From an uncultured Mycoplasma sp. (GTDB taxonomy: Bacteria; Bacillota_I; Bacilli_A; RF39; UBA660), in assembly GCA_947646115.1 (NCBI GenBank), contig CANSFH010000002.1, positions 27,806 through 91,805 on the forward strand: a DNA stretch of 64,000 nucleotides, read 5' to 3'. Below, one piece after another: positions 29,901 to 42,862 of the stretch. A program made the translations under genes and the position numbers. Under the pieces are notes generated by a model. That model was not told where the DNA came from. It ran no database searches and worked only from the letters and a program-made list of their open reading frames with translations. The first letter of the stretch is position 1. Each line of letters begins with the position of its first letter.

Positions 29901-30272
29901 ATGAAATTTTTAAAATGCTCATTATGTGGCGACACTGTTATAGCTCAAGAAAATAATTTATTTAGTTGTTGTAATGTAGAAATGCAAAAAGTAATGGCAA
30001 ACAAAACAGAAGCCGCTACAGAGAAACATATTCCTGTAGTTAACATTAAAGAAAATAATGCAACTATTGCAGTAGGAGAAATACCCCATCCTATGACTGA
30101 AGAACATTATATAGAATGGATTTATATTATAACTAATTTACGAGAAATAAGATATAATTTAAACCCAAATGCTAAACCAGAAGTAGAATTAACACCAGAG
30201 AAAAATGAAATTATAAAAGAAGTATATTCTTATTGTAATCTTCATAGTTTATGGTTAAATAAATTAAAGTAG
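29901..30272 (+). CDS. dfx: Desulfoferrodoxin (superoxide reductase)
   Basis: N-terminal CxxC...CC desulforedoxin-like site, EKHIPV, HPMTEEHYIEWI, and C-terminal YCNLHSLW. Confidence 0.8.
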   Translation: MKFLKCSLCGDTVIAQENNLFSCCNVEMQKVMANKTEAATEKHIPVVNIKENNATIAVGEIPHPMTEEHYIEWIYIITNLREIRYNLNPNAKPEVELTPEKNEIIKEVYSYCNLHSLWLNKLK

Positions 30273-30350
30273 ACTTTTGTTTACTTTTTTAAGTTTTAAT
30301 TAGTATTTAAATTTTAAATAAAGTGATATAATATATAAAAGGGTGGTAAA

Positions 30351-30938
30351 ATGAAAGTATCCTATAAAACTATAAAAGAAGATGAAAGCTATTTAAGACA
30401 AATATCCCAGCCTGTAGACTTTAATAATAATGCTTGGAAAGAATCAGTAGAGGCTTTAGATTATTTTTGTAAAAAGGAAAATAATTATATGGCCATGGCC
30501 TCAATTCAACTAGGCATCCCTTTAAGAATTGTTTATTTAAAAAAGACTGATTTAAATCGTTTAGAAGAAGATTATAATGAATCTAAAATATTAATTAATC
30601 CAATAATAAAGAAAAGTGTCGGTCTAACTAGATATTGGGAAGCTTGTGTTAGTTGCCTTGATAATACTGGATTAGTTGATAGACCATATGAAATAGAAGT
30701 AGAATATTATGATATTAATGAGGTTAAACATAAAGAAACATTTACAGGATTTAGTGCTACAGTTTTATCTCATGAGTTAGATCATTTAGATGGTATTCTT
30801 CACATTGATATTGCTAGTAAAATTTTACATATGAATATAGAAGAAAGAAAAGAATATCGTAAAACTCATCCTTACGAAATAATAAGCAAAACTGGAAAAC
30901 ATTCAAAACCAAGTAATAAAGAAAAAAGAGCAGAGTAA
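30351..30938 (+). CDS. Peptide deformylase-family protein (divergent)
   Basis: Motif II EACVSC and motif III HELDHLDG. Motif I is degenerate (MASIQLG). Confidence 0.6.
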   Translation: MKVSYKTIKEDESYLRQISQPVDFNNNAWKESVEALDYFCKKENNYMAMASIQLGIPLRIVYLKKTDLNRLEEDYNESKILINPIIKKSVGLTRYWEACVSCLDNTGLVDRPYEIEVEYYDINEVKHKETFTGFSATVLSHELDHLDGILHIDIASKILHMNIEERKEYRKTHPYEIISKTGKHSKPSNKEKRAE

Positions 30939-31014
30939 AGTGGACACTTACTTTGCTTGTTTTATTTTTATAAACCAATAAATACGTGATATAATAATAT
31001 TAGGAGGTTAAAAT

Positions 31015-31929
31015 ATGGAAAGTATAAGCATGTTAGAAAGATATGGCGAAGATTTAACCGCAAAAAATTATATTACTGACCCAGCAATAGGTCGTGATGA
31101 CGAAATAAAACAAATGATTTTAGCTCTTCTTACCCCTGAAAAAAGTGCATTATTAGTAGGCAAACCAGGTATTGGTAAAACTGCAATTGTAGAAGGACTT
31201 GCTTATCGTATTATCCAAGGTTATGTACCAGATGTATTATTAAATTATCAAATTATAAAAATAAATATAACTAGCCTTATTGGAAATACTATAATAAGTG
31301 GTGAAACAGAGAATAGAGTTGATTTATTAGTTCGTGAACTTAATACTAAAGATAATGTCATAGTATTTATTGATGAAACTCATCTTTTAATAAACAAAGA
31401 TGGTGGTATGGATTTTGCTAATATGCTAAAGGCAGGATTAGACCGTGGTACCATAAAAATGATAGGTGCAACTACTACTGATGAATATGAACAATATATT
31501 TTAAGAGATAGAGCATTTTTAAGACGTTTTCAAAAAATTGAAGTTGCTGAAAGTGATAAAGAAACAACTGTCGCAATCCTTATGGGAACTCTTCCCAAAA
31601 TAGAAGATAAAATTGGTGTAAAATGTGAGTATACAAATTTCATTAAAGAACGTATTATGCGATTTATTGTTGATATGACAGATGAATATAAAAGAGTATA
31701 CGAAATAGCCTCACGTTATCCCGATATATGTTTAACAATTGTATCTAATGCATATACTTTTGCATTATATGACAATAATCGTACTGTAACCATAAAACAT
31801 TTTTATAAAGCAATATGTAACGCTAAAAATATTTATGATGATGCTAGATTAAAAGAAATAGAAAGATTTAAAATAGAATTTGCTGATATTTTAAGAGAGG
31901 AAGGTGTTGATTTAGATGAACGGAACTAA
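31015..31929 (+). CDS. Clp/Hsp100-like AAA+ ATPase, single module
   Basis: Walker [22 protein letters not shown] typical of ClpA/B D1 domains. Only about 300 aa. Confidence 0.55.
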
Positions 31930-32971
31930 AGTTTTTCAAATTGGCTGTGGCCGAATGAGTAAGTATATTATGAAATATGTTTACGATTTAGGAGGAACCA
32001 TCGTAGGAGCAGTAGATGTGGATCCCGATAAATTAGGAGAGGATATTGGGACAATTATAGGAACTGAACCTAAAAATATTTTTATATTTGATACCTCAAA
32101 ATTGGAATATTTATTAAATGATACAAAGCCAGATATAGCAGTAATTACTACATTAAGTTATTTAAATGATGTAGAAGATACTATTAGAACTTGTGTTAGA
32201 TGTGGAGTAAATGTAATTACTACTAGTGAAGAATGCTTTTTTGCTTCAAATAGTAATCCCACTTTATTTCACGAATTAGACGTTTTAGCTGCAGCTAATA
32301 AAGTAACTATAACAGGCTGTGGATATCAAGATGTTTTTTGGGGAAATCTTATTACTGTATTAGCAGGATCTATTCATAATATTACCAAAATTAAGGGAAG
32401 TTCTTCTTATAATGTTGAAGATTATGGTATAGCTCTTGCAGAAGCTCATGGAGCAGGTTTAACATTTGATGAGTTTGAGAAAAAAATAGGAATTACCGAT
32501 AATATTAGTGATATAGTACGTGAAAAACTGATTATGGAAAGACAGTTTTCTCCTTCATATATGTGGAATGCCGTAGGGTGGATTGCTGATAAAATGAAGC
32601 TAACACCTATAAGATTAACTCAAAAATGTATTCCTGAAACGTCAGATATCGATTTACATAGTGAAACATTAAGTTTAGATATCGAAAAAGGAAATGCAAC
32701 TGGAATGAGTGCTATAGCAACTCTAGAAACAAAAGAAGGAATTATAATTGAAGCCGAATGTATTGGCAAAGTATATGGACCAGATGATTATGATAAAAAC
32801 GAATGGACCGTTTATGGTGAACCAGACACTACAATAACCGTGAATCGACCTGATACTGTAAGACTTACCTGTGCAAATATTGTAAACCGTATACCTGATG
32901 TTATAAAAGCTAAACCAGGATTTATTCCAACAAGCGAAATTGGAGAAAGCACTTATAAATTAAATTATTAA
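31916..32971 (+). CDS. NAD(P)-binding dehydrogenase (DapB-like or amine-dehydrogenase-like)
   Basis: N-terminal Rossmann fold [10 protein letters not shown]. 351 aa. Confidence 0.45.
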
Positions 32972-32974
32972 AAA

Positions 32975-33002
32975 CTCAAAAGAATTGAGTTTTTTATTTT
33001 AT
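32975..33002. terminator. Bidirectional terminator between convergent genes
   Basis: aactcaa-aaga-attgagtt followed by TTTTT. Confidence 0.6.
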
Positions 33003-33005
33003 GTT

Positions 33006-34865
33006 TTATATTTTAAGTTTAGTTTTTACAATTCTTTCTAAATGTTTTTGCAAAGCTTCATCACAAGCATATACATAACAACCCTTAATTCCTCTTGTAA
33101 GCAACACTCTATATGTATTTCTAATAATTTTATCAGCAAGCTTTTCATAATAAGACTTGTCTTTTTTCATTAAAACATATAATCCATACAATGACTTTTC
33201 TGTACTAGCTCGAGCTTTATAATCAGTTATTACTTTACCATTTCGATACTTTAAATCTGGTCCTATTATAACACCGATATAATCAAATTCTAACCCTTGA
33301 ACATTATGAACACATCCAACTTCATTTATAGCACTTATTCTTGTTGCAAACTGCTCCCCGTGTTTCAAATTCCAACTCATTTCAAAGTCATCAATTTTAA
33401 TATCTTTATATTGTTGATTATCAGCTTCTTTGGCATTTCTTGACCAACAAAAACCCGCTACTAACCTAGCATTATTAATAGTGTTTTTCTCTATTATTTC
33501 ATCTCTTAAATCTGTAGGAGTATCCATAACTTTAAAATCAAAATTAAAATTAACACTTCCTCTTTTATTATAAAGAATCTTATCTACGAAATCTAAATAA
33601 GAATCACTTCCATTACATCTAAATTGACTAGTAAGTTCTAGTTCCATAACATCAGCATTAAAGTATTTAGCAAAGTATTTGATATTTAAAATAGTTCCAA
33701 TATCTTTTAAAGTAATAATCTGTTTTTCATCAATAAAGAAAACCGATAATTTACTAGCATTCATAATTTCTTTAATCTGATTTTCGCCTATATTATTCCG
33801 CATGCCAGATTTTTCTGATAATCTATGAGATTCATCAACTAATAAAAAATCATATTTATTTGGATAATCCCTAAAGAAGTAACCCGAACTTTTAAATAAT
33901 TCATTTATACTGACTTCGTTCTTTCCATTTATTAATTTATTTTTATAAACTTTTCTGGGCGCCATATTTTTAGAAACATAAGCCCCCATTAAGCCTCTAG
34001 AAAGTAATTCGCCTAAAGCATTAATAGCTAAAATAGATTTACCACTCCCTGGCCCACCTTTAATTATCAAAACATTCTTTTTATTTTCAATATATGAAGC
34101 ATTTGCCTTGGATATAATTTCTTCCATAATTACTTTTTGTTCATCAAGCATAACAAACTCTTTACTTCCTTCTAGTATTCTATTAAGATGTTTAAGTAAT
34201 TTATTAGTCGGTTTAATATCGCTTTGATCAACTAGTTTTATAACTTCTAAATTATCACCATGTCTAATATTAGAATTAATTAAATCTTTTAAATAATCTT
34301 TATCATTCTTGCCAAACATTAAAACCTTTTTATAATAGGGACTATATTTTTTACTATATAAATCATCACTTAAGCTTAAATCATAATTGTGTAAATAAAC
34401 CAGAGGTACAACTTTTATCTTATAATCTTGAATGTTAATATTATAATTATTTAAAAGTTCAGCATAGCTTCCTACCTGATAAGCTGGGTGTAGCGAGTTT
34501 TTTTCTTTATCACCAATTAATGTTTTAATAACGCCATCTAAATTTTTTACTTCTTTAGCATATTCCCACTGTTTTAATTCGACTAATATAATCGTAGGTC
34601 TCATTTCCTCATTATAACCACTAATAATAAAATCTACTCTTTTACTTGTAAGTGGTATTCCATATTCAATTGTAATGCCAGCATTATCTGGTAATTCTTC
34701 TATAATGTCTTTCATAAAAGGTAAACTATTAGCCCAAGCTTTAATTTGATTTAGTTTGGTCTTTTTATTAAATTTTTCTTTATATGCGTCATATACTTTA
34801 TTACTTATAATATCTCTTTTGACATAATCTATAAACTCTTTTTTTAAACACGAAAAAACCATCAC
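33006..34865 (-). CDS. PD-(D/E)xK nuclease fused to a DUF2075-type SF1 helicase/ATPase (Schlafen-like or Nhi-like), a candidate defence protein
   Basis: N-terminal RVDFIISGY...ILVELKQW is a D...ELK restriction-endonuclease fold. Walker A GGPGSGKS. A long helicase-like C-terminal region follows. Confidence 0.65.
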   Translation of the reverse strand: MMVFSCLKKEFIDYVKRDIISNKVYDAYKEKFNKKTKLNQIKAWANSLPFMKDIIEELPDNAGITIEYGIPLTSKRVDFIISGYNEEMRPTIILVELKQWEYAKEVKNLDGVIKTLIGDKEKNSLHPAYQVGSYAELLNNYNINIQDYKIKVVPLVYLHNYDLSLSDDLYSKKYSPYYKKVLMFGKNDKDYLKDLINSNIRHGDNLEVIKLVDQSDIKPTNKLLKHLNRILEGSKEFVMLDEQKVIMEEIISKANASYIENKKNVLIIKGGPGSGKSILAINALGELLSRGLMGAYVSKNMAPRKVYKNKLINGKNEVSINELFKSSGYFFRDYPNKYDFLLVDESHRLSEKSGMRNNIGENQIKEIMNASKLSVFFIDEKQIITLKDIGTILNIKYFAKYFNADVMELELTSQFRCNGSDSYLDFVDKILYNKRGSVNFNFDFKVMDTPTDLRDEIIEKNTINNARLVAGFCWSRNAKEADNQQYKDIKIDDFEMSWNLKHGEQFATRISAINEVGCVHNVQGLEFDYIGVIIGPDLKYRNGKVITDYKARASTEKSLYGLYVLMKKDKSYYEKLADKIIRNTYRVLLTRGIKGCYVYACDEALQKHLERIVKTKLKI

Positions 34866-34941
34866 TTAAATCAACTCCTAAAAAAGCTAGCAAAAACATT
34901 AAGTCTTTACTAGCCCTTATATTATATATTATAACATATTT

Positions 34942-36393
34942 TTACTTAAAGCTGATATCAAAATTACTAGGTCCTTCAATACATTTACCATCTATATCAA
35001 ATCTTGAACCGTGGCATAAACAATCCCAAGTTTTTTCAATTTCATTGAACAATATGCCACACTTCATATGTGGACATTTATTATATACAATATGTTCTAA
35101 CCCATTTTCATCAGTATATATAGCAACACTCTTACCATGAATTTTTTTGTAGATAACTCTACAGTTATTAACATTATCTTTTGTGCTTTTTAGAATAGCT
35201 TTAACACTTGCTCCTATATCAATTGGCATTCTAATAACTTTACTTAAATTAATATTTCTATTTGGAGATAATAATTCTTCATAAGGATTATGTCTTTTCA
35301 TGATTATATCAGTAATAATCGTACCAGCTAAAGTTCCGTTAGTAATGCCCCAAGTATTAAAGCCTGTTGCCATAAGCATAGTATTTTCATCTTTATGGAT
35401 CCTTCCAATATAAGGCAAGTAATCATTAGTTATAATATCTTTATTACTCCAAATATACTCAAATTCCTTCTTTTTCTTTAAATCTAAAAAATTATTTTTA
35501 ATACTTTTAATATTAGCAGACACATAAGAATTAAATAAGTATATTAAATAATTGTTAGTTTTATTAGAATGATACCTAAAAGATATACAAGGCTTATCAA
35601 TGTTAATAGCACTAACTGAATAAAAATCTTTTTCCTCTTTTGCTCAAATATAAGAAGTTTCAATATGACTCTTTAGAGGCATCAAATAAGGAAACAAAAA
35701 GTAAGGATAATGGGTAGCAAAGACTACATATTTTGCTTTTATTTTATAGCCATTAACTAAAGCAATATAATTATCACTGGTTTTATCTATACTTTCTAAT
35801 TTAGAATTCTCATAAATGCTATCTTTAAATTTATTCTTTAAAAAATTAATATATTTAAGAGGATGAAACACATAAGTATCACTTACCTTTAAAGCCAGCT
35901 TTACATCGTTCATAAAAGGAATATTTTTCACTAGTTGGGAATTTACTTTACATTGGTTTAAAAATTTATATTCTTCCTCTATCTTATCACGACTATTATC
36001 ATCATTTGTAAATATATATGAATCTACTTTCTTTAAATCACAATCAATTTTTTCTTTTTCTATTCTATTTTTAAGAGTATTTACTGCTTCAACTTGACTT
36101 TTCAAATATAATTCTGCTTCTTTAAATCCTACGTATTTTCTAATATTCATATAAACTTTTTCCTGCAAAAAAGTAATTTTGGCAGTACTTCTGCACGTTA
36201 CACCATGTCCACATATATTTCTCTCAACTAAAGTAGCATTTATTCCGCTGTTTTTTAATTGATAAAGTGTTGATATCCCTGTTATACCTCCGCCAATAAT
36301 TAAAACATCAGTTTCCATATCTACAGTAACCGATTTACAGTTTTTAACATCTATATTATCTAACCAAATACTATAATTTTTCATACACATCAT
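34942..36393 (-). pseudogene. Disrupted FAD-dependent oxidoreductase with C-terminal Rieske [2Fe-2S] domain (YhfW-like), split into two ORFs
   Basis: ORF 35644..36393 holds the FAD-binding N-terminus (VLIIGGGITG). ORF 34942..35523 holds the rest of the DAO domain and the Rieske motifs CPHMKCG...CLCHGS. The two are separated by 120 nt containing stop codons. Confidence 0.5.
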
Positions 36394-36490
36394 TATTAAT
36401 ATGAGTAAAATAAATGTATTAATACATATAACTCTTGATTTTTTAGTAATTTTTTGATATCCTAATATTGCTTATTTATAAGCATTTTTG

Positions 36491-36567
36491 TGGCGGAATT
36501 GGTGAAGGGGTTAACACGGCAGATTGTGGCTCTGTTATGCATGGGTTCGAATCCCATATTTCGCCCC
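36491..36567 (+). tRNA. tRNA-His (anticodon GTG)
   Basis: G-1:C73 pair, acceptor GCGGAAT/ATTTCGC, anticodon loop TTGTGGC, T-arm GGGTTCGAATCCC, CCA encoded. It is near-identical in layout to B. subtilis tRNA-His. Confidence 0.85.
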
Positions 36568-36668
36568 ATATTGAATTTTACGCACAACTTTGTGCGAAAG
36601 TTAAAGTAAAAGTTCGTAATACTTGATATTATGGACTTTTTTCTTTGCAAAGGTGGTGAGTATATAAA

Positions 36669-36962
36669 ATGAATGTGTCCATAGAATTTTTAGAATTTCC
36701 TTTGTGTATAAAAAATAAAATACTTAGAATTAAAAATATTACCAAACTAAATATAGAATATATTGCAGGAAAGAATATTGTTTTTAATAACTCTAATTTA
36801 GGATTAAATGAACCACATAATATTATCATTAGTAATAATACTCACAGTCTAGTTTTACTTTGTTATGATAATGATTCAAATCTATATAATGAAGACTTAT
36901 TAGATACTATTACAATAACTGAATTAACCAATATAATTGAATATTTATTAAAAGAAAATTAA
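36669..36962 (+). CDS. Hypothetical small protein
   Basis: 97-aa ORF just downstream of tRNA-His. No motif recognised. Confidence 0.3.
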   Translation: MNVSIEFLEFPLCIKNKILRIKNITKLNIEYIAGKNIVFNNSNLGLNEPHNIIISNNTHSLVLLCYDNDSNLYNEDLLDTITITELTNIIEYLLKEN

Positions 36963-37290
36963 AAAATTTTTAAATTTGCTTTTTCCTTTATTTATAAGGG
37001 TTAAACAACTATTTTTTGGTGTACTTTTTAAGTTGTGTCAAAAGATGATATAGATAGTTATATAAAATCGTTAAGTGAATTTTATAAGATAAAACAAAAC
37101 AATTTAAATATAGATTCTATTAATTTAGAAGAACTAGGTCAAAAGAATAGTCTATTATAAATAATCCCTAACAAAAAAGAATCAAGAATCAAGATTTGAT
37201 AAAGAAAAATATACTTTATTGCAAATATGTAGTTAAGATTACTCGAAAATATGATAAAATATTATTTAGAAGATGTGTTGGGAGGTTTTT

Positions 37291-38079
37291 ATGAAGAACA
37301 TTAATCAACTTGAATTGAAGAAAAAGAAATATATAATTTTTGATATGGATGGTACATTAATTGATTCTATAGGTGTATGGAATAGAACAGATCAAAAACT
37401 AATAGAAGAATATGGGAATCAAACTATAGGATTAGATGAAATTCAAATTGAAAGAGATGAATTTCTTCATAGTAATCAAGATAGCGATATTTATTTAGCT
37501 TATTGTGAATATCTAATCTCAAAGTACAGTTTAAGTATTAGAAATGCCGAAGAATTATTAAGAATTAGATGGGATAAATCTGGAGAAGTATTAGAAAAAG
37601 AAATGGATTTCAAAGAAGATGTTGTACAATTAGTATTAAGATTAAAAAAACTTGGATTTATTCTTATTTTAGCAACTATGACAACTCAAGTTCAATTGGA
37701 TATTTATTCAAAAAGAAATAAGAAAATGCTAGAGCAAATGAATATTGCAGAAGTTTTTGATTTGATTACTAGAAAAGAAGATGTTATAAATAAGAAGCCT
37801 AATCCCGAAATATATATTAAAATTATGCAACATTATAATGCTAGTCCAGATGAATGTTTAGTGTTTGAAGATTCTTATACAGGAGTTTTAGCAAGTCAAA
37901 ATGCAGGAATAGAATGTATAAATATTTATGATAAATATGCTGATATAGATAGAGATAAAATAGATGGAATTACAGATTATAGTATTAAAAGTTATAGAGA
38001 GTTTTTAGGTTTAGTTGATACAATATATCCGATTGAACCAGAAAAAGAAATAAAAAGAGCTTTAAACCGAAATTGTTAA
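37291..38079 (+). CDS. HAD-superfamily hydrolase (beta-phosphoglucomutase-like subfamily)
   Basis: Motif I IIFDMDGTLIDS. GGGAGG RBS 6 nt upstream of ATG 37291. Confidence 0.75.
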   Translation: MKNINQLELKKKKYIIFDMDGTLIDSIGVWNRTDQKLIEEYGNQTIGLDEIQIERDEFLHSNQDSDIYLAYCEYLISKYSLSIRNAEELLRIRWDKSGEVLEKEMDFKEDVVQLVLRLKKLGFILILATMTTQVQLDIYSKRNKKMLEQMNIAEVFDLITRKEDVINKKPNPEIYIKIMQHYNASPDECLVFEDSYTGVLASQNAGIECINIYDKYADIDRDKIDGITDYSIKSYREFLGLVDTIYPIEPEKEIKRALNRNC

Positions 38080-38086
38080 TATAGGA

Positions 38087-38108
38087 GCGAGAAATTGCTC
38101 TTTTTTTG
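38087..38108 (+). terminator. Terminator
   Basis: gagcga-gaaa-ttgctc followed by TTTTTTT. Confidence 0.5.
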
Positions 38109-38306
38109 TTGTTTAAATTTAGAAAGGAGATGAGTTTTATTAATTATTTCTTTGAAATAGTCGTACCACAATTATTAGAATATTTAAAAAAATGCAAAGG
38201 ATGTTCCTTATTCTTTGTTATTTGAAGATTAATTAATAATAAGAACTATGAAAAAGAAGTAAAAGAAATTATTGAAAAATCTAATGGAATTAGTCAATAT
38301 TTCAAC

Positions 38307-39008
38307 TTGATAGATAATAAAATTATAGACCTAATTTCAAGTCAGTTTAATCATAATATAGATTATAAGGCCTATCAAATTATAGATAGACAAAAAATAT
38401 TAACTGATGACACAAAGAATACATATAACATATTAAAAGCAAGATTAATAAAAGAATTATTAAAACAGGTTGATGAAAAAGTATATTCTTGTAAATCTTG
38501 TAATAAATTAGTAGATAAATTCCCTAATGATGCAACAGTATTTCTTGGAAAAGATAATGATATCGTATTAGTTGGAGAAGCTCCTGCTAATAATGGTTTG
38601 AGAAAGAGTCATAAATTATGGTGTGATATAAATGATAAAGTATTACCTAGTGGAGTTGTATTACAAAAACTATTTGATATAATTGATAGAAATATCTTTG
38701 AAACAACATTTTTAGAATCAGTTAAATGTTATCCACTTGAAAGAAAAGATTTAAAAACTTGTTCTAATAATTGTAAGAACATAATGTTAGAACAATTAAG
38801 AATATTAAATCCTAAATTGATTATTACTTTAGGAGAATTTCCAACTAGAAATTTACTTGATTTTAAATTTAAAACATTTTCTGATGTCGTTGGTAACATA
38901 TATGAAGTAAATGGTTATAAAATATTACCTATTTATCATCCTAGCCCAATATCTCCGAAGAGTTATAAAGGTAATATTCCAATCATTAAAAAAATGAGAG
39001 AAATGTAG
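38307..39008 (+). CDS. Uracil-DNA glycosylase superfamily protein (family 4-like, Fe-S type)
   Basis: Motif A VLVGEAPANNG (GEAPG-like), motif B IYHPSPISP (HPSP), and four Cys (CKSC...C...C). TTG start. Confidence 0.5.
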   Translation: MIDNKIIDLISSQFNHNIDYKAYQIIDRQKILTDDTKNTYNILKARLIKELLKQVDEKVYSCKSCNKLVDKFPNDATVFLGKDNDIVLVGEAPANNGLRKSHKLWCDINDKVLPSGVVLQKLFDIIDRNIFETTFLESVKCYPLERKDLKTCSNNCKNIMLEQLRILNPKLIITLGEFPTRNLLDFKFKTFSDVVGNIYEVNGYKILPIYHPSPISPKSYKGNIPIIKKMREM

Positions 39009-39108
39009 CAATTTGTAGAATTATTTGATATAATGAATTTAGATTTAAAGGGCTAGTACAGACTTTGAATAAGTTTTGTATTGGTCTTTTTTAGATATGG
39101 GAGATAAA

Positions 39109-39627
39109 ATGAAAAAGATTATATTCTTAAGTGGTGTTCATGGCGTTGGTAAAGGATATATTGCCAAACAAATAGAAAAAGAAGTTAATATGCCAATATA
39201 TGAAGCAAGTAAGTTAATTCGATTAAATGGAGTATCAAGTGATAAAAATAAAAGAGTAGAGAATGTAGGAAACAACCAAGAGTTATTAATAAATTCGATA
39301 AATAATCTAATTAGTGATGAAATCTTTATTTTAGATGGTCATACCTGTTTGATAACTGCTGATAGAAACATTGAATCAATTGATATTAATTACTTTAGGG
39401 AAATTAACATTATAGGCATTATCTCTATTTATGATGATATTAATATTATAAAAGAAAGGATTTATAAAAGAGATAACATTAATTTTAGTAAATCATTATT
39501 AGATGATTTACAGCGAACTGAAATAGAAAATACCAAACGATTATCAAAACAATTATGTACCCCCCTATTGGTATTTAAAAATGGAGATAATATAAATAGG
39601 CTAATTGATTTTGTTAAAAGTTTGTAG
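39109..39627 (+). CDS. P-loop NTPase or kinase (AAA_33, adenylate/polynucleotide-kinase-like)
   Basis: Walker A FLSGVHGVGKGYIAKQI at the N-terminus. Small size (about 170 aa). Confidence 0.5.
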   Translation: MKKIIFLSGVHGVGKGYIAKQIEKEVNMPIYEASKLIRLNGVSSDKNKRVENVGNNQELLINSINNLISDEIFILDGHTCLITADRNIESIDINYFREINIIGIISIYDDINIIKERIYKRDNINFSKSLLDDLQRTEIENTKRLSKQLCTPLLVFKNGDNINRLIDFVKSL

Positions 39628-39637
39628 GAGGCTTTAA

Positions 39638-41128
39638 ATGATAAAAATATTATTAGACACTAATATAATCGTATATAGGGAAAGTGATAATGTTTATAAA
39701 GAAAAAATTGGAGAATTATTTAAAATAATAGATAATAATCCTAATATGTATAAGTACATACATCCAGTAATTAAACAAGAATTATTACAAAATGTTTACA
39801 ATGAAAAAAGAGATTTATTACTTGATAGGCTGACATCCTATAATGTTTTAGAAAATTGCAGAATGATTGATTCTAAATTAAAAGCAATAACAAATCCTTT
39901 AAATAAAACGGTCAATGACCAAATAGATGATATCATTTTAAATGAACTATATGTTGGTAAAGTAGATTTTTTAATCACTGAAGATAAAAAAATAAAGCAA
40001 AAATCAATCACTTTAGACATCGGCAATAAAGTAATGAATATTAATGAATTCATTTTTATAAATAGAAATGAGAAAAATATAAACCATAATATTTTAGATA
40101 TTTATAAAGTTAAGTTTGGAGATTTAGATATAAATGATTCTTTTTTTGATTCGCTAAAAAATGATTATCCTGGATTTTTAGATTGGTATGAAAGAAAGAA
40201 CAATGAAGATGTATATTGCTATAAAGAACAAGGTAAGATATTAGGATTATTATTTCTTAAAAATGAGGAACCTGAATCAGAAGATTACTCTGACATTAAG
40301 CCTATGATGAAACTAAATAGAAAATTAAAAATTTCCACTTTTAAAGTAGATATTGGTGGCAAAAAAATTGGAGAAAGATTTATGAAAATAGTATTTGATC
40401 AAGCACTATTTTCTATGGTAGATGAAATATATGTTACTATTTATGATAATGATGATAAAAAGATGAATCTGATAAGATATTTTGAAAAATTTGGATTTAA
40501 TTATTATGGAAAAAAGAATAATGAATTAGTATATGTTAGGAGCATGAAAAAGAATTTTGATGATAATAATCCTTTGAAAAATTATCCATACATAAAAAGA
40601 AATAATGATACATTTGTTATTCCAATCAAGCCTAAGTATCATACATATTTATTGCCTGATTCAATACTATATAGAGAATCATATAAGGATATTCATATGC
40701 CAGTTGAATATGCTATAAATAAATATTATATTACAAATAGTGGTTGGTTAGAGATTCCAAAAATTGGAGATAACATTGTTTTTTATCGTAGTCGACAAGA
40801 AGGTGCTATTGCTAAATATTCAAGTGTATTAACCACTATTGGTGTTGTTACTAATATTTTTATTCCAAAAAATGAACAAGAATTAGTTAATAAAGTTTCA
40901 GGAAGAACAGTATATAATGAAAGTGAATTAAGAAAAACATATAGTAAAAACACTTATGTAATTGAATTTGCATATATAACTACTTTAGATAAAAAATTAA
41001 ATTATGATTTTTGTAAAACAAATGGCATATTAGAAGAAGCCCCACGAGGAGTTTCTAAAATTGATAGTACAAAATTTCAAAAAATAATTGAGTTTGGTAA
41101 AATTGACACAACTTTAATTATTAAATAA
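39638..41128 (+). CDS. Three-domain protein: N-terminal PIN-like nuclease, central GNAT acetyltransferase, C-terminal ASCH/PUA-like domain
   Basis: MIKILLDTNIIVY...VDFLITEDKK supplies the PIN acidic residues. GNAT core ...IGERFMKIVFDQAL...IRYFEKFGFNYYGKK. The C-terminus FVIPIKPKYHTYLLP...GDNIVFYRS parallels the adjacent ASCH protein (ISIKPEYVNEIL...). Confidence 0.5.
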   Translation: MIKILLDTNIIVYRESDNVYKEKIGELFKIIDNNPNMYKYIHPVIKQELLQNVYNEKRDLLLDRLTSYNVLENCRMIDSKLKAITNPLNKTVNDQIDDIILNELYVGKVDFLITEDKKIKQKSITLDIGNKVMNINEFIFINRNEKNINHNILDIYKVKFGDLDINDSFFDSLKNDYPGFLDWYERKNNEDVYCYKEQGKILGLLFLKNEEPESEDYSDIKPMMKLNRKLKISTFKVDIGGKKIGERFMKIVFDQALFSMVDEIYVTIYDNDDKKMNLIRYFEKFGFNYYGKKNNELVYVRSMKKNFDDNNPLKNYPYIKRNNDTFVIPIKPKYHTYLLPDSILYRESYKDIHMPVEYAINKYYITNSGWLEIPKIGDNIVFYRSRQEGAIAKYSSVLTTIGVVTNIFIPKNEQELVNKVSGRTVYNESELRKTYSKNTYVIEFAYITTLDKKLNYDFCKTNGILEEAPRGVSKIDSTKFQKIIEFGKIDTTLIIK

Positions 41129-41182
41129 GATTTGAACTTAAAATTATGATATAATTAGAATAATAATAGGAGGAAATATTTT

Positions 41183-41557
41183 ATGTGTAAAATTTTGATT
41201 TCAATAAAGCCTGAATATGTAAATGAAATTTTATCTGGTAGAAAAAAATATGAATATAGAAAAGTCAAAGCAAAAAAAGATAATGTAGACAAAATGATCA
41301 TATATGCCACAGCTCCTATTATGAAAGTAGTAGCAGAAATAGAAATTTTAAAAATTCTAGAAGATACTCCAGATTTAATATGGGAAAATACAAAAGAGTA
41401 TTCAGGTATTAATAAATCTTTCTATGATAAATATTATGAAAATCGAAATATTGCGATTGCATATCAATTAGGAAAAATTGAAAAATATAATAAACCAAAG
41501 GAGTTAAGCGATTTGGGTATTTCATATAGTCCTCAATCATTCATTTATATTGATTAA
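41183..41557 (+). CDS. ASCH-domain (PUA-like) protein
   Basis: ILISIKPEYVNEILSGRKKYEYRK is a typical ASCH N-terminus. 124 aa. Confidence 0.6.
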   Translation: MCKILISIKPEYVNEILSGRKKYEYRKVKAKKDNVDKMIIYATAPIMKVVAEIEILKILEDTPDLIWENTKEYSGINKSFYDKYYENRNIAIAYQLGKIEKYNKPKELSDLGISYSPQSFIYID

Positions 41558-41719
41558 AGTTTAAAAATTTGATATAATTAATTTATCAAGTATTAATTAA
41601 ATACTTTTACGACTTGGGTGCAAAACTCATTTTGGTATTGCCCCATTATGATAATTACTCTCTATTTTAGGGAGTTTTTATTTGTTTTATTTTATGTTAT
41701 AATTATTAAGGTGGTTAAA

Positions 41720-42175
41720 TGACAATACGTGAATTTATTTAATCCTTAAATTTTGAAGAAAATTATTATTTTTATCATATAACAGGAAAAGGCAATGCAG
41801 AATTAATTTTAGAACAAGGACTATATGTAGAAGGGGACAATATTTTAAATACAAATAATATTCTTGAAACTACAACATTTCTAACGCCAGATATAGCTTC
41901 AGAAAGTTTAATATTTAGAAGTTTTTTAGAGGGGAGAACTAGGTAATATAGGAATTAGAGATACTTCTGAACTTGTTGTATTATGCGGTCCTAAAAGTTG
42001 TATGAAGCGAATAGTTTCAGATTTTGATGGTTATCAAGATGGAGTGTACTATGAAGGAATAATTCCTCGTGAATTTGTTATGGGTTATTTTGCGAATGAT
42101 ACATTAGAATTTACTGCAAATGAAAACTTTAGTTATGGAACAGATGCATTCTATGAATCAGTTACATATCGGTAA
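41720..42175 (+). pseudogene. Decayed gene with premature stop and frameshifts
   Basis: ATG at 41720 hits a stop after 7 codons. Two further reading-frame segments (YHITGKGNAELILEQGLYVEGDN... and GIRDTSELVVLCGPKSCMKRIVSDFDGYQDGVYYEG...) are coding-like but not contiguous. No ORF of 60 aa or more is present. Confidence 0.4.
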
Positions 42176-42248
42176 AAATAAAAATGAATAATTAATAAAA
42201 AATAAAATATAGATTATAAATATTTAATATAGAAAAGGAAGTATAAGT

Positions 42249-42797
42249 ATGAAAAAAGTATCTAATAGTATAGTAGGATTATTAAAAATAATTTTAAGTC
42301 TAATAAACTTAGTTTTAGCAATTGTAATTATTTTAAATATTTTATTATTAATGTCTTCTAGAGTTTTAAAGAACGCATATCCATCAATCCTCGATTATAC
42401 GTATTATGTTGTAGAAGAAAAAAATTCTTCTCTAAATTTAGATAAAGGAAATCTTTTAATAATTGATACAAGAACTACTGCTGACTCTGAAGATATTATT
42501 GTTTATCAAAATAATGATAAGCTAGACTATGCTATAGTAACTGAAAGTGATAATTATAGTGCGACTATTAATGAAAACGGCGAAGATATTAAAATTGATA
42601 ATGAATCTATATTAGGAATTGTTAAAATAAATATTCCTGAAGCAGGTACTATTGCAAATCAAATTTTAACAATTAAAGGATTAATCATTTCTGTCATGGC
42701 TATAACTATTACTGGTATAATTCAGGGATTACTAACTAAAAAGTCTAAAAAAGATAATCAAGTAAAACCAGATTTTGAAAATATGAAAAATATATAA
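42249..42797 (+). CDS. Membrane protein, possibly a type I signal-peptidase (S26/SipW)-like protein
   Basis: N-terminal TM, a central soluble domain and a C-terminal TM. This topology resembles SipW-type peptidases, but I could not place the catalytic Ser/His with confidence. Confidence 0.3.
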   Translation: MKKVSNSIVGLLKIILSLINLVLAIVIILNILLLMSSRVLKNAYPSILDYTYYVVEEKNSSLNLDKGNLLIIDTRTTADSEDIIVYQNNDKLDYAIVTESDNYSATINENGEDIKIDNESILGIVKINIPEAGTIANQILTIKGLIISVMAITITGIIQGLLTKKSKKDNQVKPDFENMKNI

Positions 42798-42862
42798 AGT
42801 ATTCAAATGAATATTTTATTTTTATAATTTTTTACTTATGTTATAATAAAATTGTGATTTAT

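What the first reader, a model, noticed from the sequence alone, without database searches (positions are those of the whole stretch)
33006..34865. PD-(D/E)xK nuclease plus DUF2075/SF1-helicase single-protein candidate defence gene next to tRNA-His
Seen in sequence: the 619-aa protein has an N-terminal restriction-endonuclease-like motif (RVDFIISGY...ILVELKQW, giving D...E-L-K), a P-loop GGPGSGKS, and a long helicase-like C-terminus.

Established knowledge: this layout matches the DUF2075/Schlafen-like ATPase family. Fusions of a nuclease with an SF1 helicase act as stand-alone anti-phage or anti-plasmid proteins, Nhi-type for example.

It sits in a short accessory stretch between a core convergent terminator at 32975 and tRNA-His at 36491, next to a disrupted oxidoreductase gene. 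That is a typical defence-islet context.
Basis: partly seen in the sequence, partly recalled or inferred. Interest (0 to 1): 0.6.

Follow-up and report, generated by a model that had tools for sequence, protein, structure and literature searches.

The report
Nuclease-helicase candidate phage-defence gene
A 619-residue protein in an uncultured gut bacterium joins a DNA-cutting domain to a DNA-unwinding motor, the same build as three proven single-protein phage defences, so it is a new branch of a known kind; its mRNA leader also sits in front of many other defence genes.

Summary
The ORF at 33006-34865 (-) encodes 619 aa. It has a full-length Pfam SLFN-g3_helicase (ex-DUF2075) domain (E 3.6e-89) and an N-terminal domain with no Pfam model. 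That domain carries a family-invariant E67...D78...E96-x-K98...Q130xxxY134 nuclease signature.

The defence reading is plausible but unproven. PADLOC gives only superfamily-level hits (PDC-S41 1.6e-17, Nhi 2.6e-14). The protein therefore shares the architecture of Nhi, Nhi-like and AbiO without belonging to any modelled family.

The "accessory stretch" reading is only partly right. The gene holds the same slot, co-diverging with its neighbours, in 15 of 19 informative related species. Two of those 15 copies are disrupted. It is absent from 4 species, in at least two of them by deletion. Mobile elements insert on the other side of tRNA-His.

Relatives at 36-46% identity lie on plasmids and in restriction-modification, CRISPR or STAND-NTPase islands, in both bacteria and archaea.

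One unexpected finding: the gene's leader is an extended -10 box followed by a conserved terminator-like hairpin. It recurs 4.2 kb away in front of a PDC-M11 candidate system, and in metagenomes in front of at least 10 other defence-type genes.

Verdict: new member of a known kind, moderate interest.

The parts
33006..34865 (-). CDS of the 619-aa nuclease-helicase protein (GTG start, TAA stop)
   Evidence: An identical 618-aa product (P0001) is on record in public assemblies.
34161..34865 (-). N-terminal domain (residues 1 to about 235), PD-(D/E)xK / NERD-like nuclease fold with no Pfam model
   Evidence: AF2 model pLDDT 87. Best BFVD match is a 'Nuclease-related domain protein', E 1.3e-4, TM 0.47, followed by several PD-(D/E)XK proteins. 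PDB Foldseek gives only weak hits to PD-(D/E)xK nucleases. 1360 clusters share the domain, nearly always at the N-terminus of proteins of about 620 aa.
34464..34667 (-). Putative catalytic core: E67 (strand 1), D78 (strand 2), E96-L-K98 (strand 3), Q130-x3-Y134 (following helix)
   Evidence: Invariant in 25 close homologues and in 61 distant ones. Placement on strands and helix is from the model. Reading the QxxxY helix as a RecB-family motif rests on established knowledge.
33060..34079 (-). SF1B-type helicase domain (residues 263-602), Pfam PF09848 SLFN-g3_helicase / DUF2075
   Evidence: E 3.6e-89. Foldseek gives DSH9, RecD2, SLFN11, Dna2, IGHMBP2, Upf1 and Dda at E 3e-10 to 3e-6.
34035..34058 (-). 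Walker A / helicase motif I, GGPGSGKS (residues 270-277). Walker B D344-E345 lies at 33831-33836.
   Evidence: G273, G275, K276 and E345 are invariant.
34866..34936 (-). 5' leader. Extended -10 box: TG at 34935-34936 and TATAAT at 34928-34933. A 15-bp hairpin at 34883-34917 is followed by a T-run. RBS AGGAG at 34875-34879.
   Evidence: Fold dG -21.9 kcal/mol, z -4.3. The leader is conserved upstream of the helicase in every helicase-bearing locus. The structure is supported by one compensatory pair and several G-U switches. The covariance model scores 56 bits on the sense strand and 18 bits on the antisense strand.
32970..32994 (.). A+T-rich bidirectional hairpin between the convergent stop codons of the DAP_DH_C-like gene and the helicase
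   Evidence: z -2.6 on + and -4.7 on -. Not found by the consensus scan.
34942..36393 (-). Upstream neighbour: a FAD-dependent oxidoreductase with a Rieske domain, interrupted by one TGA (35644-35646). Present or absent independently of the helicase.
36493..36568 (+). tRNA-His (GTG), the conserved landmark of the locus. Mobile elements lie beyond its 3' end in relatives.
39046..39095 (+). Second copy of the leader hairpin (GGGCTAGTACAGACTT...), preceded by the extended -10 box TGATATAAT
   Evidence: 61 bits, E 5.9e-12
39109..41557 (+). Operon behind the second leader: a P-loop AAA_17 protein, PDC-M11A (496 aa) and PDC-M11B/ASCH (124 aa). This is a separate candidate defence system.
   Evidence: (PDC-M11A E 2.5e-145 over its full length; PDC-M11B E 1e-44)

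Best explanation
The gene most likely encodes a self-contained nuclease-helicase that defends the cell against phages or other invading DNA. It has the same architecture as Nhi, Nhi-like and AbiO.

Proposed mechanism:
1. The C-terminal SF1B-type motor binds ATP and translocates on single-stranded DNA exposed in replicating or recombining foreign DNA.
2. The motor feeds that DNA to the N-terminal PD-(D/E)xK (NERD/RecB-like) nuclease.
3. The nuclease degrades the DNA, so phage DNA does not accumulate.

No partner protein is needed in this lineage.

Expression is probably kept low. The gene has its own extended -10 promoter, and its transcript begins with a terminator-like hairpin directly before the ribosome-binding site.

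Shown here: the domains, the conserved catalytic and ATPase residues, the genomic distribution and the leader.

Inferred: substrate, polarity, trigger, anti-phage effect and the role of the leader.
For: Architecture:
- PF09848 helicase over its full length.
- SF1B structural neighbours RecD2, Dda, Dna2, Upf1 and SLFN11.
- Walker A/B and the nuclease residues E, D, ExK and QxxxY are invariant across 61 divergent relatives, so both activities are under selection.
- The N-domain's nearest folds are NERD and PD-(D/E)XK nucleases.

Link to defence:
- PADLOC matches PDC-S41, Nhi and, in relatives, AbiO.
- Nhi, Nhi-like and AbiO are experimentally validated single proteins with a PD-(D/E)xK domain plus a DUF2075/SLFN_3-like helicase.

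Family-level context:
- Homologues at 36-42% identity are on plasmids of Methanosphaera, Halalkalicoccus, Hymenobacter, Priestia, Marivirga and Halomonas, and in a Microcystis phage.
- They lie next to restriction-modification genes, an ABC-three-component system, DUF262 and DUF3578.
- A 46% homologue lies between Cas1-Cas2/HNH genes and a STAND NTPase.
- This patchy spread across bacteria and archaea indicates horizontal transfer.

Dispensability, among 19 informative related species:
- Absent in 4. A leader and 5' coding remnant in L029 shows deletion there, and the leader-type hairpin remaining in L023 is compatible with it.
- Split in L035, and a nonsense codon in L030.
- Absent at this locus in all 59 more distant species.

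Local context:
- A PDC-M11 candidate system lies 4.2 kb away across tRNA-His.
- An AIPR Abi-type gene occupies that flank in the closest relative.
- The leader is shared with at least 10 other defence-type cargo genes.
Against: - There is no experiment on this protein or its subfamily.
- Similarity to validated systems is only at superfamily level. The Nhi profile covers the helicase part only, and AbiO does not hit the window protein.
- Within its clade the gene behaves like a stable chromosomal gene. It holds the same slot in 15 species. Identity decays in step with the neighbours: helicase 92/71/68/68%, DAP_DH_C 97/72/70/70%. dN/dS is 0.14-0.21.
- The gene is not inside the integrated elements.
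- No strain-level absence was seen, although only 3-4 contigs of the species exist.
- The N-domain has no significant match to a solved structure.
- Whether genomes lacking the gene at this locus carry it elsewhere could not be checked.
Confidence: 0.6

Rival explanations
1. It is a chromosomal DNA-repair or replication-fork-processing enzyme, analogous to Dna2, AddAB or RecD2. It would have been inherited vertically in this small-genome gut lineage and would trim ssDNA flaps or ends during repair rather than attack foreign DNA.
For: - Stable synteny and co-divergence with the flanking genes in 15 species.
- Purifying selection on both domains.
- Structural similarity to Dna2 and RecD2.
- A RecB-like QxxxY helix in the nuclease domain.
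- 8 of 61 family members carry a C-terminal LexA-like Peptidase_S24 domain, which hints at a link to DNA damage.
- The gene lies outside the integrated elements.
Against: - Absent in 4 of 19 related species and disrupted in 2.
- Absent at the locus in all more distant relatives.
- No NCBIfam equivalog or housekeeping helicase family matches.
- Distant homologues are on plasmids and in restriction-modification or CRISPR islands, with a cross-domain patchy distribution.
- dN/dS is 2-6 times higher than for the core neighbours.
- The leader is shared with defence-type cargo.
Confidence: 0.15
2. It is a defence enzyme, but of the modification-dependent (type IV-like) kind. It would recognise and destroy DNA carrying phage-type base modifications, as proposed for the Nhi-like protein, rather than sensing replication intermediates.
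For: - Phages escape Nhi-like by losing a DNA methylase.
- Relatives in Priestia, Marivirga and a Microcystis phage are preceded by a MazG-like nucleotide pyrophosphohydrolase.
- In Priestia the neighbour is a DUF3578 protein.
- DUF2075 proteins neighbour modification-dependent endonucleases.
Against: - No modification-reading domain (SRA, PUA, DUF3427, YTH or similar) is detected in the 619 aa.
- The MazG-like partner is absent from the window and its whole clade.
Confidence: 0.15
3. It acts as an abortive-infection toxin, like AbiO. Once triggered, the nuclease-helicase degrades host as well as phage DNA, and the infected cell dies or stops growing. The terminator-like leader would exist to keep a toxic protein at a very low level.
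For: - AbiO has the same architecture and is toxic at high copy number.
- One Nhi homologue was toxic when induced.
- The leader hairpin plus T-run lies between the promoter and the RBS.
- The same leader precedes kinases, HNH and other effector-type defence genes.
Against: - S. epidermidis Nhi protects by preventing phage DNA accumulation, and the paper's model is degradation of phage-specific replication intermediates, not host killing.
- Nothing in the sequence distinguishes the two modes.
- Long-term vertical retention argues against high toxicity.
Confidence: 0.1

Closest known systems
Nhi (SERP2475, Staphylococcus epidermidis; Bari et al., bioRxiv 10.1101/776245)
   Same: A single polypeptide with an N-terminal PD-(D/E)xK nuclease and a DUF2075-overlapping SF1B helicase. 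Both activities are required for immunity. Homologues are patchily spread by horizontal transfer and lie near defence genes.
   Different: The PADLOC Nhi profile aligns only with the helicase part (residues 234-560, E 2.6e-14), so the nuclease domains are not detectably homologous. Nhi carries an extra C-terminal glyoxalase/bleomycin-resistance-like domain, which is absent here. No functional data exist for the window protein.
Nhi-like (Millman et al. 2022, bioRxiv 10.1101/2022.05.11.491447)
   Same: Defined by architecture alone: a predicted N-terminal nuclease plus PF09848, with no sequence identity to Nhi. It is validated as anti-phage. By that definition the window protein is another 'Nhi-like' protein.
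   Different: Direct sequence comparison was not possible because the sequence was not at hand. Nhi-like appears to be triggered by methylated phage DNA. No such indication exists here.
AbiO (Lactococcus abortive infection protein)
   Same: An N-terminal restriction-endonuclease-like PD-(D/E)xK domain plus a C-terminal SF1B / SLFN_3-like helicase, in a single gene. 53 of 61 family relatives give weak AbiO hits.
   Different: The window protein itself does not reach E <= 1 against the AbiO profile. AbiO is a gene of lactococci.
PADLOC candidate PDC-S41
   Same: This is the best PADLOC hit, and the only one that aligns with the N-terminal domain (residues 5-302 against profile positions 7-276). 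60 of 61 relatives hit it.
   Different: E-values stay at 1e-17 to 1e-21 and cover under half of the 657-position profile, so it is a related family and not the same one. PDC-S41 is itself an untested candidate, and no paper in the searched library mentions it.
Dna2 / RecB-family nuclease-helicases
   Same: A PD-(D/E)xK nuclease with a QxxxY helix lies N-terminal to an SF1B motor in one chain. Dna2 is a structural hit (5ean, E 1e-7).
   Different: No Fe-S cluster cysteines were noted. The protein is far shorter, not universal in its clade, and sits in a different context.
Group 3 Schlafens (SLFN11, SLFN5, SLFN13) and bacterial Schlafen nucleases
   Same: The helicase domain belongs to the same Pfam family, PF09848. 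SLFN11 is a structural hit.
   Different: The Schlafen core RNase (AlbA_2-type) domain that defines Schlafens and the recently described bacterial Schlafen defences is absent. It is replaced here by a PD-(D/E)xK-type domain.

Membership tests
Pfam PF09848 SLFN-g3_helicase (DUF2075) | Profile match above the gathering score over the whole domain | tested here: met
   299.9 bits against a cut-off of 24. Residues 263-602 align with profile positions 1-354 of 354.
SF1 helicases (SF1B-like) | Conserved Walker A (GxGKS/T), Walker B (DExx) and further helicase motifs, with a RecA-like tandem fold | tested here: met
   G273, G275, K276, E345, D379 and Q414 are invariant in 61 relatives. Foldseek hits RecD2, Dda, Upf1, Dna2 and IGHMBP2 with probability 1.0. 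Translocation polarity was not testable.
PD-(D/E)xK nuclease superfamily | Catalytic D...(D/E)xK on consecutive beta strands | tested here: met
   D78 lies on strand 76-84 and E96-L-K98 on strand 90-98. E67, Q130 and Y134 are also present. All are invariant.
PD-(D/E)xK nuclease superfamily | Significant structural or profile similarity to a known member | tested here: inconclusive
Nhi (PADLOC PDLC02372) | Full-length homology that includes the Nhi nuclease domain | tested here: not met
   E 2.6e-14. Only profile positions 178-441 of 470 align, with residues 234-560.
Nhi / Nhi-like / AbiO functional class | Anti-phage protection that depends on the nuclease and helicase active sites | not testable with these tools
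   This needs phage challenge of wild-type and active-site mutants.
PADLOC PDC-S41 | Strong full-length profile match | tested here: not met
   E 1.6e-17, covering profile positions 7-276 of 657. The best among 61 relatives is 2.7e-21.
Schlafen proteins | Schlafen core (AlbA_2-type) RNase domain | tested here: not met
   No such Pfam hit at E <= 1. The N-domain folds as a PD-(D/E)xK-like domain.
Housekeeping helicases (RecD, HelD/HelR, PcrA and similar) | NCBIfam equivalog or subfamily match, and universal presence in related genomes | tested here: not met
   No NCBIfam hit above noise; the best is E 0.0025, far below the cut-off. The gene is absent or disrupted in 6 of 19 related species and absent at the locus in 59 more distant ones.
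Defence genes in general (operational criteria) | Enrichment next to known defence systems, and variable presence | tested here: met
   Family level: restriction-modification, ABC-3C, DUF262, Cas1-Cas2, HNH and STAND neighbours. Local: PDC-M11 4.2 kb away, and an AIPR gene in the closest relative. Presence or absence across species. Not quantified against a genome-wide background.

The most novel reading that the evidence does not exclude
The roughly 70-nt leader is an extended -10 promoter followed by a hairpin with the 5' arm GGGCTAGTA(A/C)AGACTT, a U-run and the RBS. It may be a dedicated cis-regulatory RNA module of a defence 'regulon', or a cassette system, in low-G+C gut Bacilli.

It may act as a leader terminator that keeps many unrelated and potentially toxic defence genes almost silent and lets them be read through under a common signal such as infection. 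It may also mark the boundary at which defence cargo is swapped next to tRNA-His.

The nuclease-helicase would then be one of many cargoes under this control. The other cargoes seen are PD-T4-6-type kinases, PDC-M11, PDC-M30, PDC-M68, PDC-S36, PDC-S46, TPR-CSD and restriction-endonuclease-like proteins.
Probability: 0.2. Interest if true: 0.7.

Novelty: new member of a known kind. Interest (0 to 1): 0.42.

Why it matters
Single-protein nuclease-helicases (Nhi, Nhi-like, AbiO) are among the simplest nucleic-acid-targeting immune proteins. Only a few branches of the very large DUF2075 family have been tested.

This branch has at least 1360 clusters at 50% identity and spans bacteria, archaea and a phage. 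It has its own uncatalogued nuclease domain and no dedicated model in PADLOC or Pfam, so defence annotators see it weakly at best. Adding it would improve defence annotation of uncultured gut Bacilli.

It is also a useful evolutionary case. The gene family is mobile across domains, yet in one clade it has been retained in a single chromosomal slot across many species.

The shared leader, if it is regulatory, would give a sequence handle for finding new defence genes in these genomes. It would also allow a test of how expression of such genes is restrained.

Tried and rejected
- **Alternative genetic code.** I asked whether the TGA in the oxidoreductase means UGA = Trp. Rejected: TGG is used for Trp, and long ORFs lack TGA. 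Homologues have Gly at that position, and another contig has the gene intact.
- **Sequence search against solved structures.** The full-length protein gave only noise, namely a HEPN toxin and spermidine synthase. The N-domain profile gave spurious hits to designed armadillo repeats.
- **Rfam on 32800-37300.** Only tRNA-His was found, so the leader is not a known RNA family.
- **Consensus promoter scan.** Not informative in 26% G+C DNA: 36 sites found against 29 expected.
- **Is the hairpin merely the oxidoreductase terminator?** Rejected as the sole explanation. It is present before the helicase where no co-directional gene lies upstream (L011). It also recurs at unrelated loci.
- **Is it a generic terminator family of these genomes?** Rejected. 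A covariance model run over 952 kb of related loci found strong hits only at the helicase leader and at one other cargo leader per locus.
- **Is there a conserved partner gene?** A MazG-like protein precedes some distant relatives but is absent here. The DAO-Rieske gene is present or absent independently of the helicase.
- **Strain-level presence or absence in the same species.** Only 3-4 contigs exist, and all carry the gene, so this is uninformative.
- **Literature.** Nothing was found on PDC-S41. Recent 'bacterial Schlafen' papers concern the RNase domain, which this protein lacks.
Full report
**1. The observation**

The window has 26% G+C. The ORF at 33006-34865 on the minus strand encodes 619 aa. 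An identical product is on record from public assemblies.

The start is most likely the GTG at 34865. AGGAG lies 9 nt upstream, and orthologues begin GTG-ATA, which excludes the second codon as their start.

Pfam assigns residues 263-602 to PF09848 SLFN-g3_helicase, formerly DUF2075, at E 3.6e-89 over the entire profile. NCBIfam gives nothing meaningful.

tRNA-His is at 36493-36568. An A+T-rich hairpin at 32970-32994 lies between the two convergent stop codons.

The 'disrupted oxidoreductase' is a single TGA (35644-35646) in an otherwise continuous DAO+Rieske frame. It is a nonsense change at a position where homologues have Gly. The gene is intact on another contig that carries the identical helicase. 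UGA is a stop here, not Trp.

**2. Anatomy of the protein**

An AlphaFold2 model built on 25 homologues is confident: pLDDT 87, pTM 0.84.

The C-terminal two thirds match SF1B helicases. Foldseek hits are DSH9, RecD2, SLFN11, Dna2, IGHMBP2, Upf1 and Dda, at E 3e-10 to 3e-6.

The N-terminal ~235 residues have no Pfam family. No solved relative is detectable by sequence or profile.

Modelled alone, the N-domain has pLDDT 87. Its weak PDB neighbours are mostly PD-(D/E)xK nucleases: EndoMS, SfsA, Can2, Bax1, BsoBI and HamA, with the best at E 0.066. Against predicted viral structures the best match is a 'Nuclease-related domain' (NERD) protein at E 1.3e-4, TM 0.47. Several proteins annotated PD-(D/E)XK follow.

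The strongest argument for an active nuclease is conservation. In 61 representatives at 28-66% identity to the query, E67, R76, D78, E96, K98, W100, H126, P127, Q130 and Y134 are invariant. So are Walker A (G273, G275, K276) and Walker B (E345).

In the model D78 and E96-x-K98 lie on consecutive strands, and Q130xxxY134 lies on the following helix. From established knowledge, this is the arrangement of RecB-family PD-(D/E)xK nucleases.

**3. The family**

A search with the N-domain alone against 1.84 billion cluster representatives finds 1360 clusters at E <= 1e-3. The match is almost always at the N-terminus of proteins of about 620 aa. This is therefore a coherent two-domain family.

Some members are about 800 aa, and 8 of 61 carry a Peptidase_S24 (LexA-like) domain.

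PADLOC recognises the window protein, and 60 of 61 relatives, only weakly: PDC-S41 1.6e-17 (best 2.7e-21), Nhi 2.6e-14 and AbiO (relatives only, best 2e-18). Nhi aligns with the helicase part only. PDC-S41 is the only model that aligns with the N-domain. The family therefore has no model of its own and is not a member of these families in the strict sense.

The literature shows that Nhi, Nhi-like and AbiO are validated single-protein defences with this architecture. Nhi-like was named on architecture alone.

**4. Genomic context in relatives**

The organism is an uncultured gut member of the Bacilli. Relatives are labelled 'Bacilli bacterium', 'Mycoplasma sp. CAG:776' and Candidatus Caccenecus.

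In contigs carrying helicases at 100%, 92%, 72% and 68% identity, the gene is always convergent with the same block: DAP_DH_C-like, AAA, (Pdf), desulfoferrodoxin, HAAS, PadR. tRNA-His is always on the other side.

Identities decay together:

| Protein | L003 | L007 | L011 | L014 |
|---|---|---|---|---|
| Helicase | 92% | 71% | 68% | 68% |
| DAP_DH_C | 97% | 72% | 70% | 70% |
| AAA | 99% | 88% | 84% | 83% |

dN/dS against the closest relative is 0.14 for the helicase (N-domain 0.16, helicase domain 0.11). It is 0.02-0.07 for the core neighbours.

Integrases, a prophage, nSTAND3 and resolvase genes lie beyond the 3' end of tRNA-His, away from the helicase.

I used the DAP_DH_C gene as an anchor in one genome per species and then ran tblastn. 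The close clade has 21 species:

| State of the helicase | Species | Loci |
|---|---|---|
| Present in the slot | 15 | of these, 11 complete, 2 cut by contig ends, L035 split into two ORFs, L030 with a CAA-to-TAA stop at codon 392 |
| Absent | 4 | L017, L023, L029, L032 |
| Contig too short to tell | 2 | L024, L027 |

L029 keeps the hairpin's 5' arm and the first helicase codons, and L023 keeps a leader-type hairpin directly after the oxidoreductase stop. The L029 loss is therefore a deletion, and L023 is compatible with one, although the hairpin there could also serve as that gene's terminator.

All 59 more distant species lack the gene at this locus. The gene is equally not a freshly acquired islet.

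**5. Context of distant homologues**

tblastn finds full-length homologues at 36-42% identity on plasmids of Methanosphaera, Halalkalicoccus, Hymenobacter, Priestia, Marivirga and Halomonas, and in a Microcystis phage. Their neighbours are:

- a BPTD_3080 restriction endonuclease, a methyltransferase and a second DUF2075 gene in Hymenobacter;
- an ABC-three-component system, a restriction endonuclease, DUF3578, a MazG-like protein and type I restriction-modification genes in Priestia;
- a DUF262 gene in Methanosphaera.

A 46% homologue lies between Cas1-Cas2/HNH genes and a STAND NTPase.

The MazG-like partner seen in three lineages is absent from the window clade.

**6. The leader**

A conserved extended -10 box (TGTTATAAT) lies between the oxidoreductase stop and the helicase start. 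Eleven nt after it comes a 15-bp hairpin, AGGGCTAGTAAAGAC/GTTTTTGCTAGCTTT, with a T-run. AGGAG follows immediately.

The element is nearly invariant at the DNA level in front of the helicase in every helicase-bearing locus. That includes loci with no co-directional upstream gene.

RNAalifold supports 11 pairs, with one compensatory A-U to C-G change and several G-C/G-U and U-A/U-G switches. The G-U pairs make the structure specific to the sense strand. A covariance model scores 56 bits on the sense strand and 18 bits on the antisense strand.

Rfam has no such family.

A near-copy lies at 39046-39095, again behind an extended -10 box. It sits directly upstream of an operon encoding an AAA_17 P-loop protein plus PADLOC PDC-M11A (E 2.5e-145) and PDC-M11B (E 1e-44).

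I then scanned metagenomes for the 5' arm and filtered for a hairpin plus a T-run. This yields about 30 instances in low-G+C contigs, in front of different genes. All ten non-helicase cargoes scanned hit PADLOC models, one of them only weakly:

- Ser/Thr kinases of PD-T4-6 type, in three cargoes
- PDC-M68A (HNH)
- a TPR plus cold-shock-domain protein
- PDC-S36 / NOV_C
- PDC-S46 (E 1e-183)
- PDC-M30A
- a restriction-endonuclease-like protein
- a P-loop ATPase (weak hit)

Some other cargoes do not look defensive. These are secreted YHYH-like proteins and small membrane proteins.

Many of these leaders follow a conserved 189-aa protein, with or without the UDG gene, and in some loci a small resolvase. 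That protein is not in the window.

Over 952 kb of related loci the model finds strong hits only at these two kinds of site. The element is therefore not a generic terminator.

One caveat: the metagenome instances were found through the 5' arm, so its invariance among them is by construction.

**7. Interpretation**

The best-supported reading is a stand-alone nuclease-helicase defence enzyme of the Nhi/AbiO architectural class (confidence 0.6).

Both active sites are under selection. The family is horizontally mobile and linked to defence islands. The local gene is dispensable across species. It also shares a leader with other defence candidates.

Against this, it is unusually stable within its clade, similarity to validated systems is remote, and nothing has been tested.

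The rivals are a repair or replication enzyme (0.15), a modification-dependent variant of defence (0.15) and an abortive-infection mode (0.1).

It is a new member of a known kind. The leader is the least expected part and deserves separate follow-up.

Noticed in passing
window 34866-34936 (-) and 39046-39095 (+); also L014 1077-1125, L021 10609-10657, L125, L151, L168, L183, L201, L215 and others: A conserved leader, made of an extended -10 box, a hairpin with the 5' arm GGGCTAGTA(A/C)AGACTT, a T-run and an RBS, precedes the helicase and a second operon in the window. In metagenomes of low-G+C gut Bacilli it precedes many different genes, most of them defence-type. It is not in Rfam. It is specific to the sense strand and shows one compensatory pair.
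   Followed up: partly
window 39109-41557 (+): An operon of an AAA_17 P-loop protein (172 aa), a 496-aa protein matching PADLOC PDC-M11A over its full length (E 2.5e-145) and an ASCH-domain protein matching PDC-M11B (E 1e-44). This is a second candidate defence system, on the 3' side of tRNA-His.
   Followed up: partly
window 35644-35646 (-): A single nonsense TGA, where homologues have Gly, splits the DAO+Rieske oxidoreductase into 249-aa and 193-aa ORFs. The same split occurs in contig L001, while the gene is intact in L002, which has an identical helicase. This is recent pseudogenisation or a strain polymorphism.
   Followed up: yes
L035 9527-11376; L030 1780-3632; L029 5406-5535; L023 11124-11169: Decay series of the helicase in related species. 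It is split into 148-aa and 389-aa ORFs in L035. L030 has one CAA-to-TAA stop. In L029 the ORF is deleted but the hairpin's 5' arm and the first codons remain. In L023 only a leader-type hairpin remains, directly after the oxidoreductase stop.
   Followed up: yes
L029 5575-7266 (+); L035 11526-13214 (+): A 562-563-aa protein of unknown function, with only a weak Helicase_C_3 hit and no PADLOC hit, is inserted between the helicase leader and the oxidoreductase gene in two species.
   Followed up: partly
L099 7585-7914; L100 5657-5986; Marivirga plasmid hit H7: In distant relatives from a Priestia plasmid, a Marivirga plasmid and a Microcystis phage, a MazG-like nucleotide pyrophosphohydrolase (109 aa in the Priestia and Microcystis copies, which were scanned) lies directly upstream of the DUF2075 gene. 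This suggests a two-gene variant of the system. The partner is absent in the window clade.
   Followed up: partly
family members among P0126-P0269 (about 790-815 aa): Eight of 61 family representatives carry a Peptidase_S24 (LexA/UmuD-like autoprotease) domain. This hints that some members are controlled by RecA-ssDNA or DNA damage.
   Followed up: no
L014 1172-2287; L018 9666-10784; L125, L151, L153, L169, L183, L212, L215: A conserved 189-aa protein lies just upstream of the 'type-2' leader in many contigs that carry different defence cargo. In some loci a 106-aa resolvase fragment and a 76-aa protein accompany it. This suggests a conserved island scaffold with swappable cargo. It is not present in the window.
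   Followed up: partly
window 29901-36393 compared with L003: Synonymous divergence from the closest relative rises towards tRNA-His: Dfx 0.00, Pdf 0.09, AAA 0.18, DAP_DH_C 0.21, helicase 0.30, oxidoreductase 0.46. This is compatible with recombination having homogenised the core flank but not the stretch holding the helicase and the oxidoreductase.
   Followed up: no
L003 4691-6682 (-) compared with window 36600-42800: The 3' flank of tRNA-His differs between close relatives. The window has a 97-aa ORF, HAD, UDG and the PDC-M11 operon. The relative with 92% helicase identity has DnaJ-like, 179-aa and AIPR (Abi-type) genes. Both stretches are bounded by the same NUDIX, Metallophos, Ser_hydrolase, Lactamase_B and MMPL block. 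It looks like a variable hotspot.
   Followed up: partly
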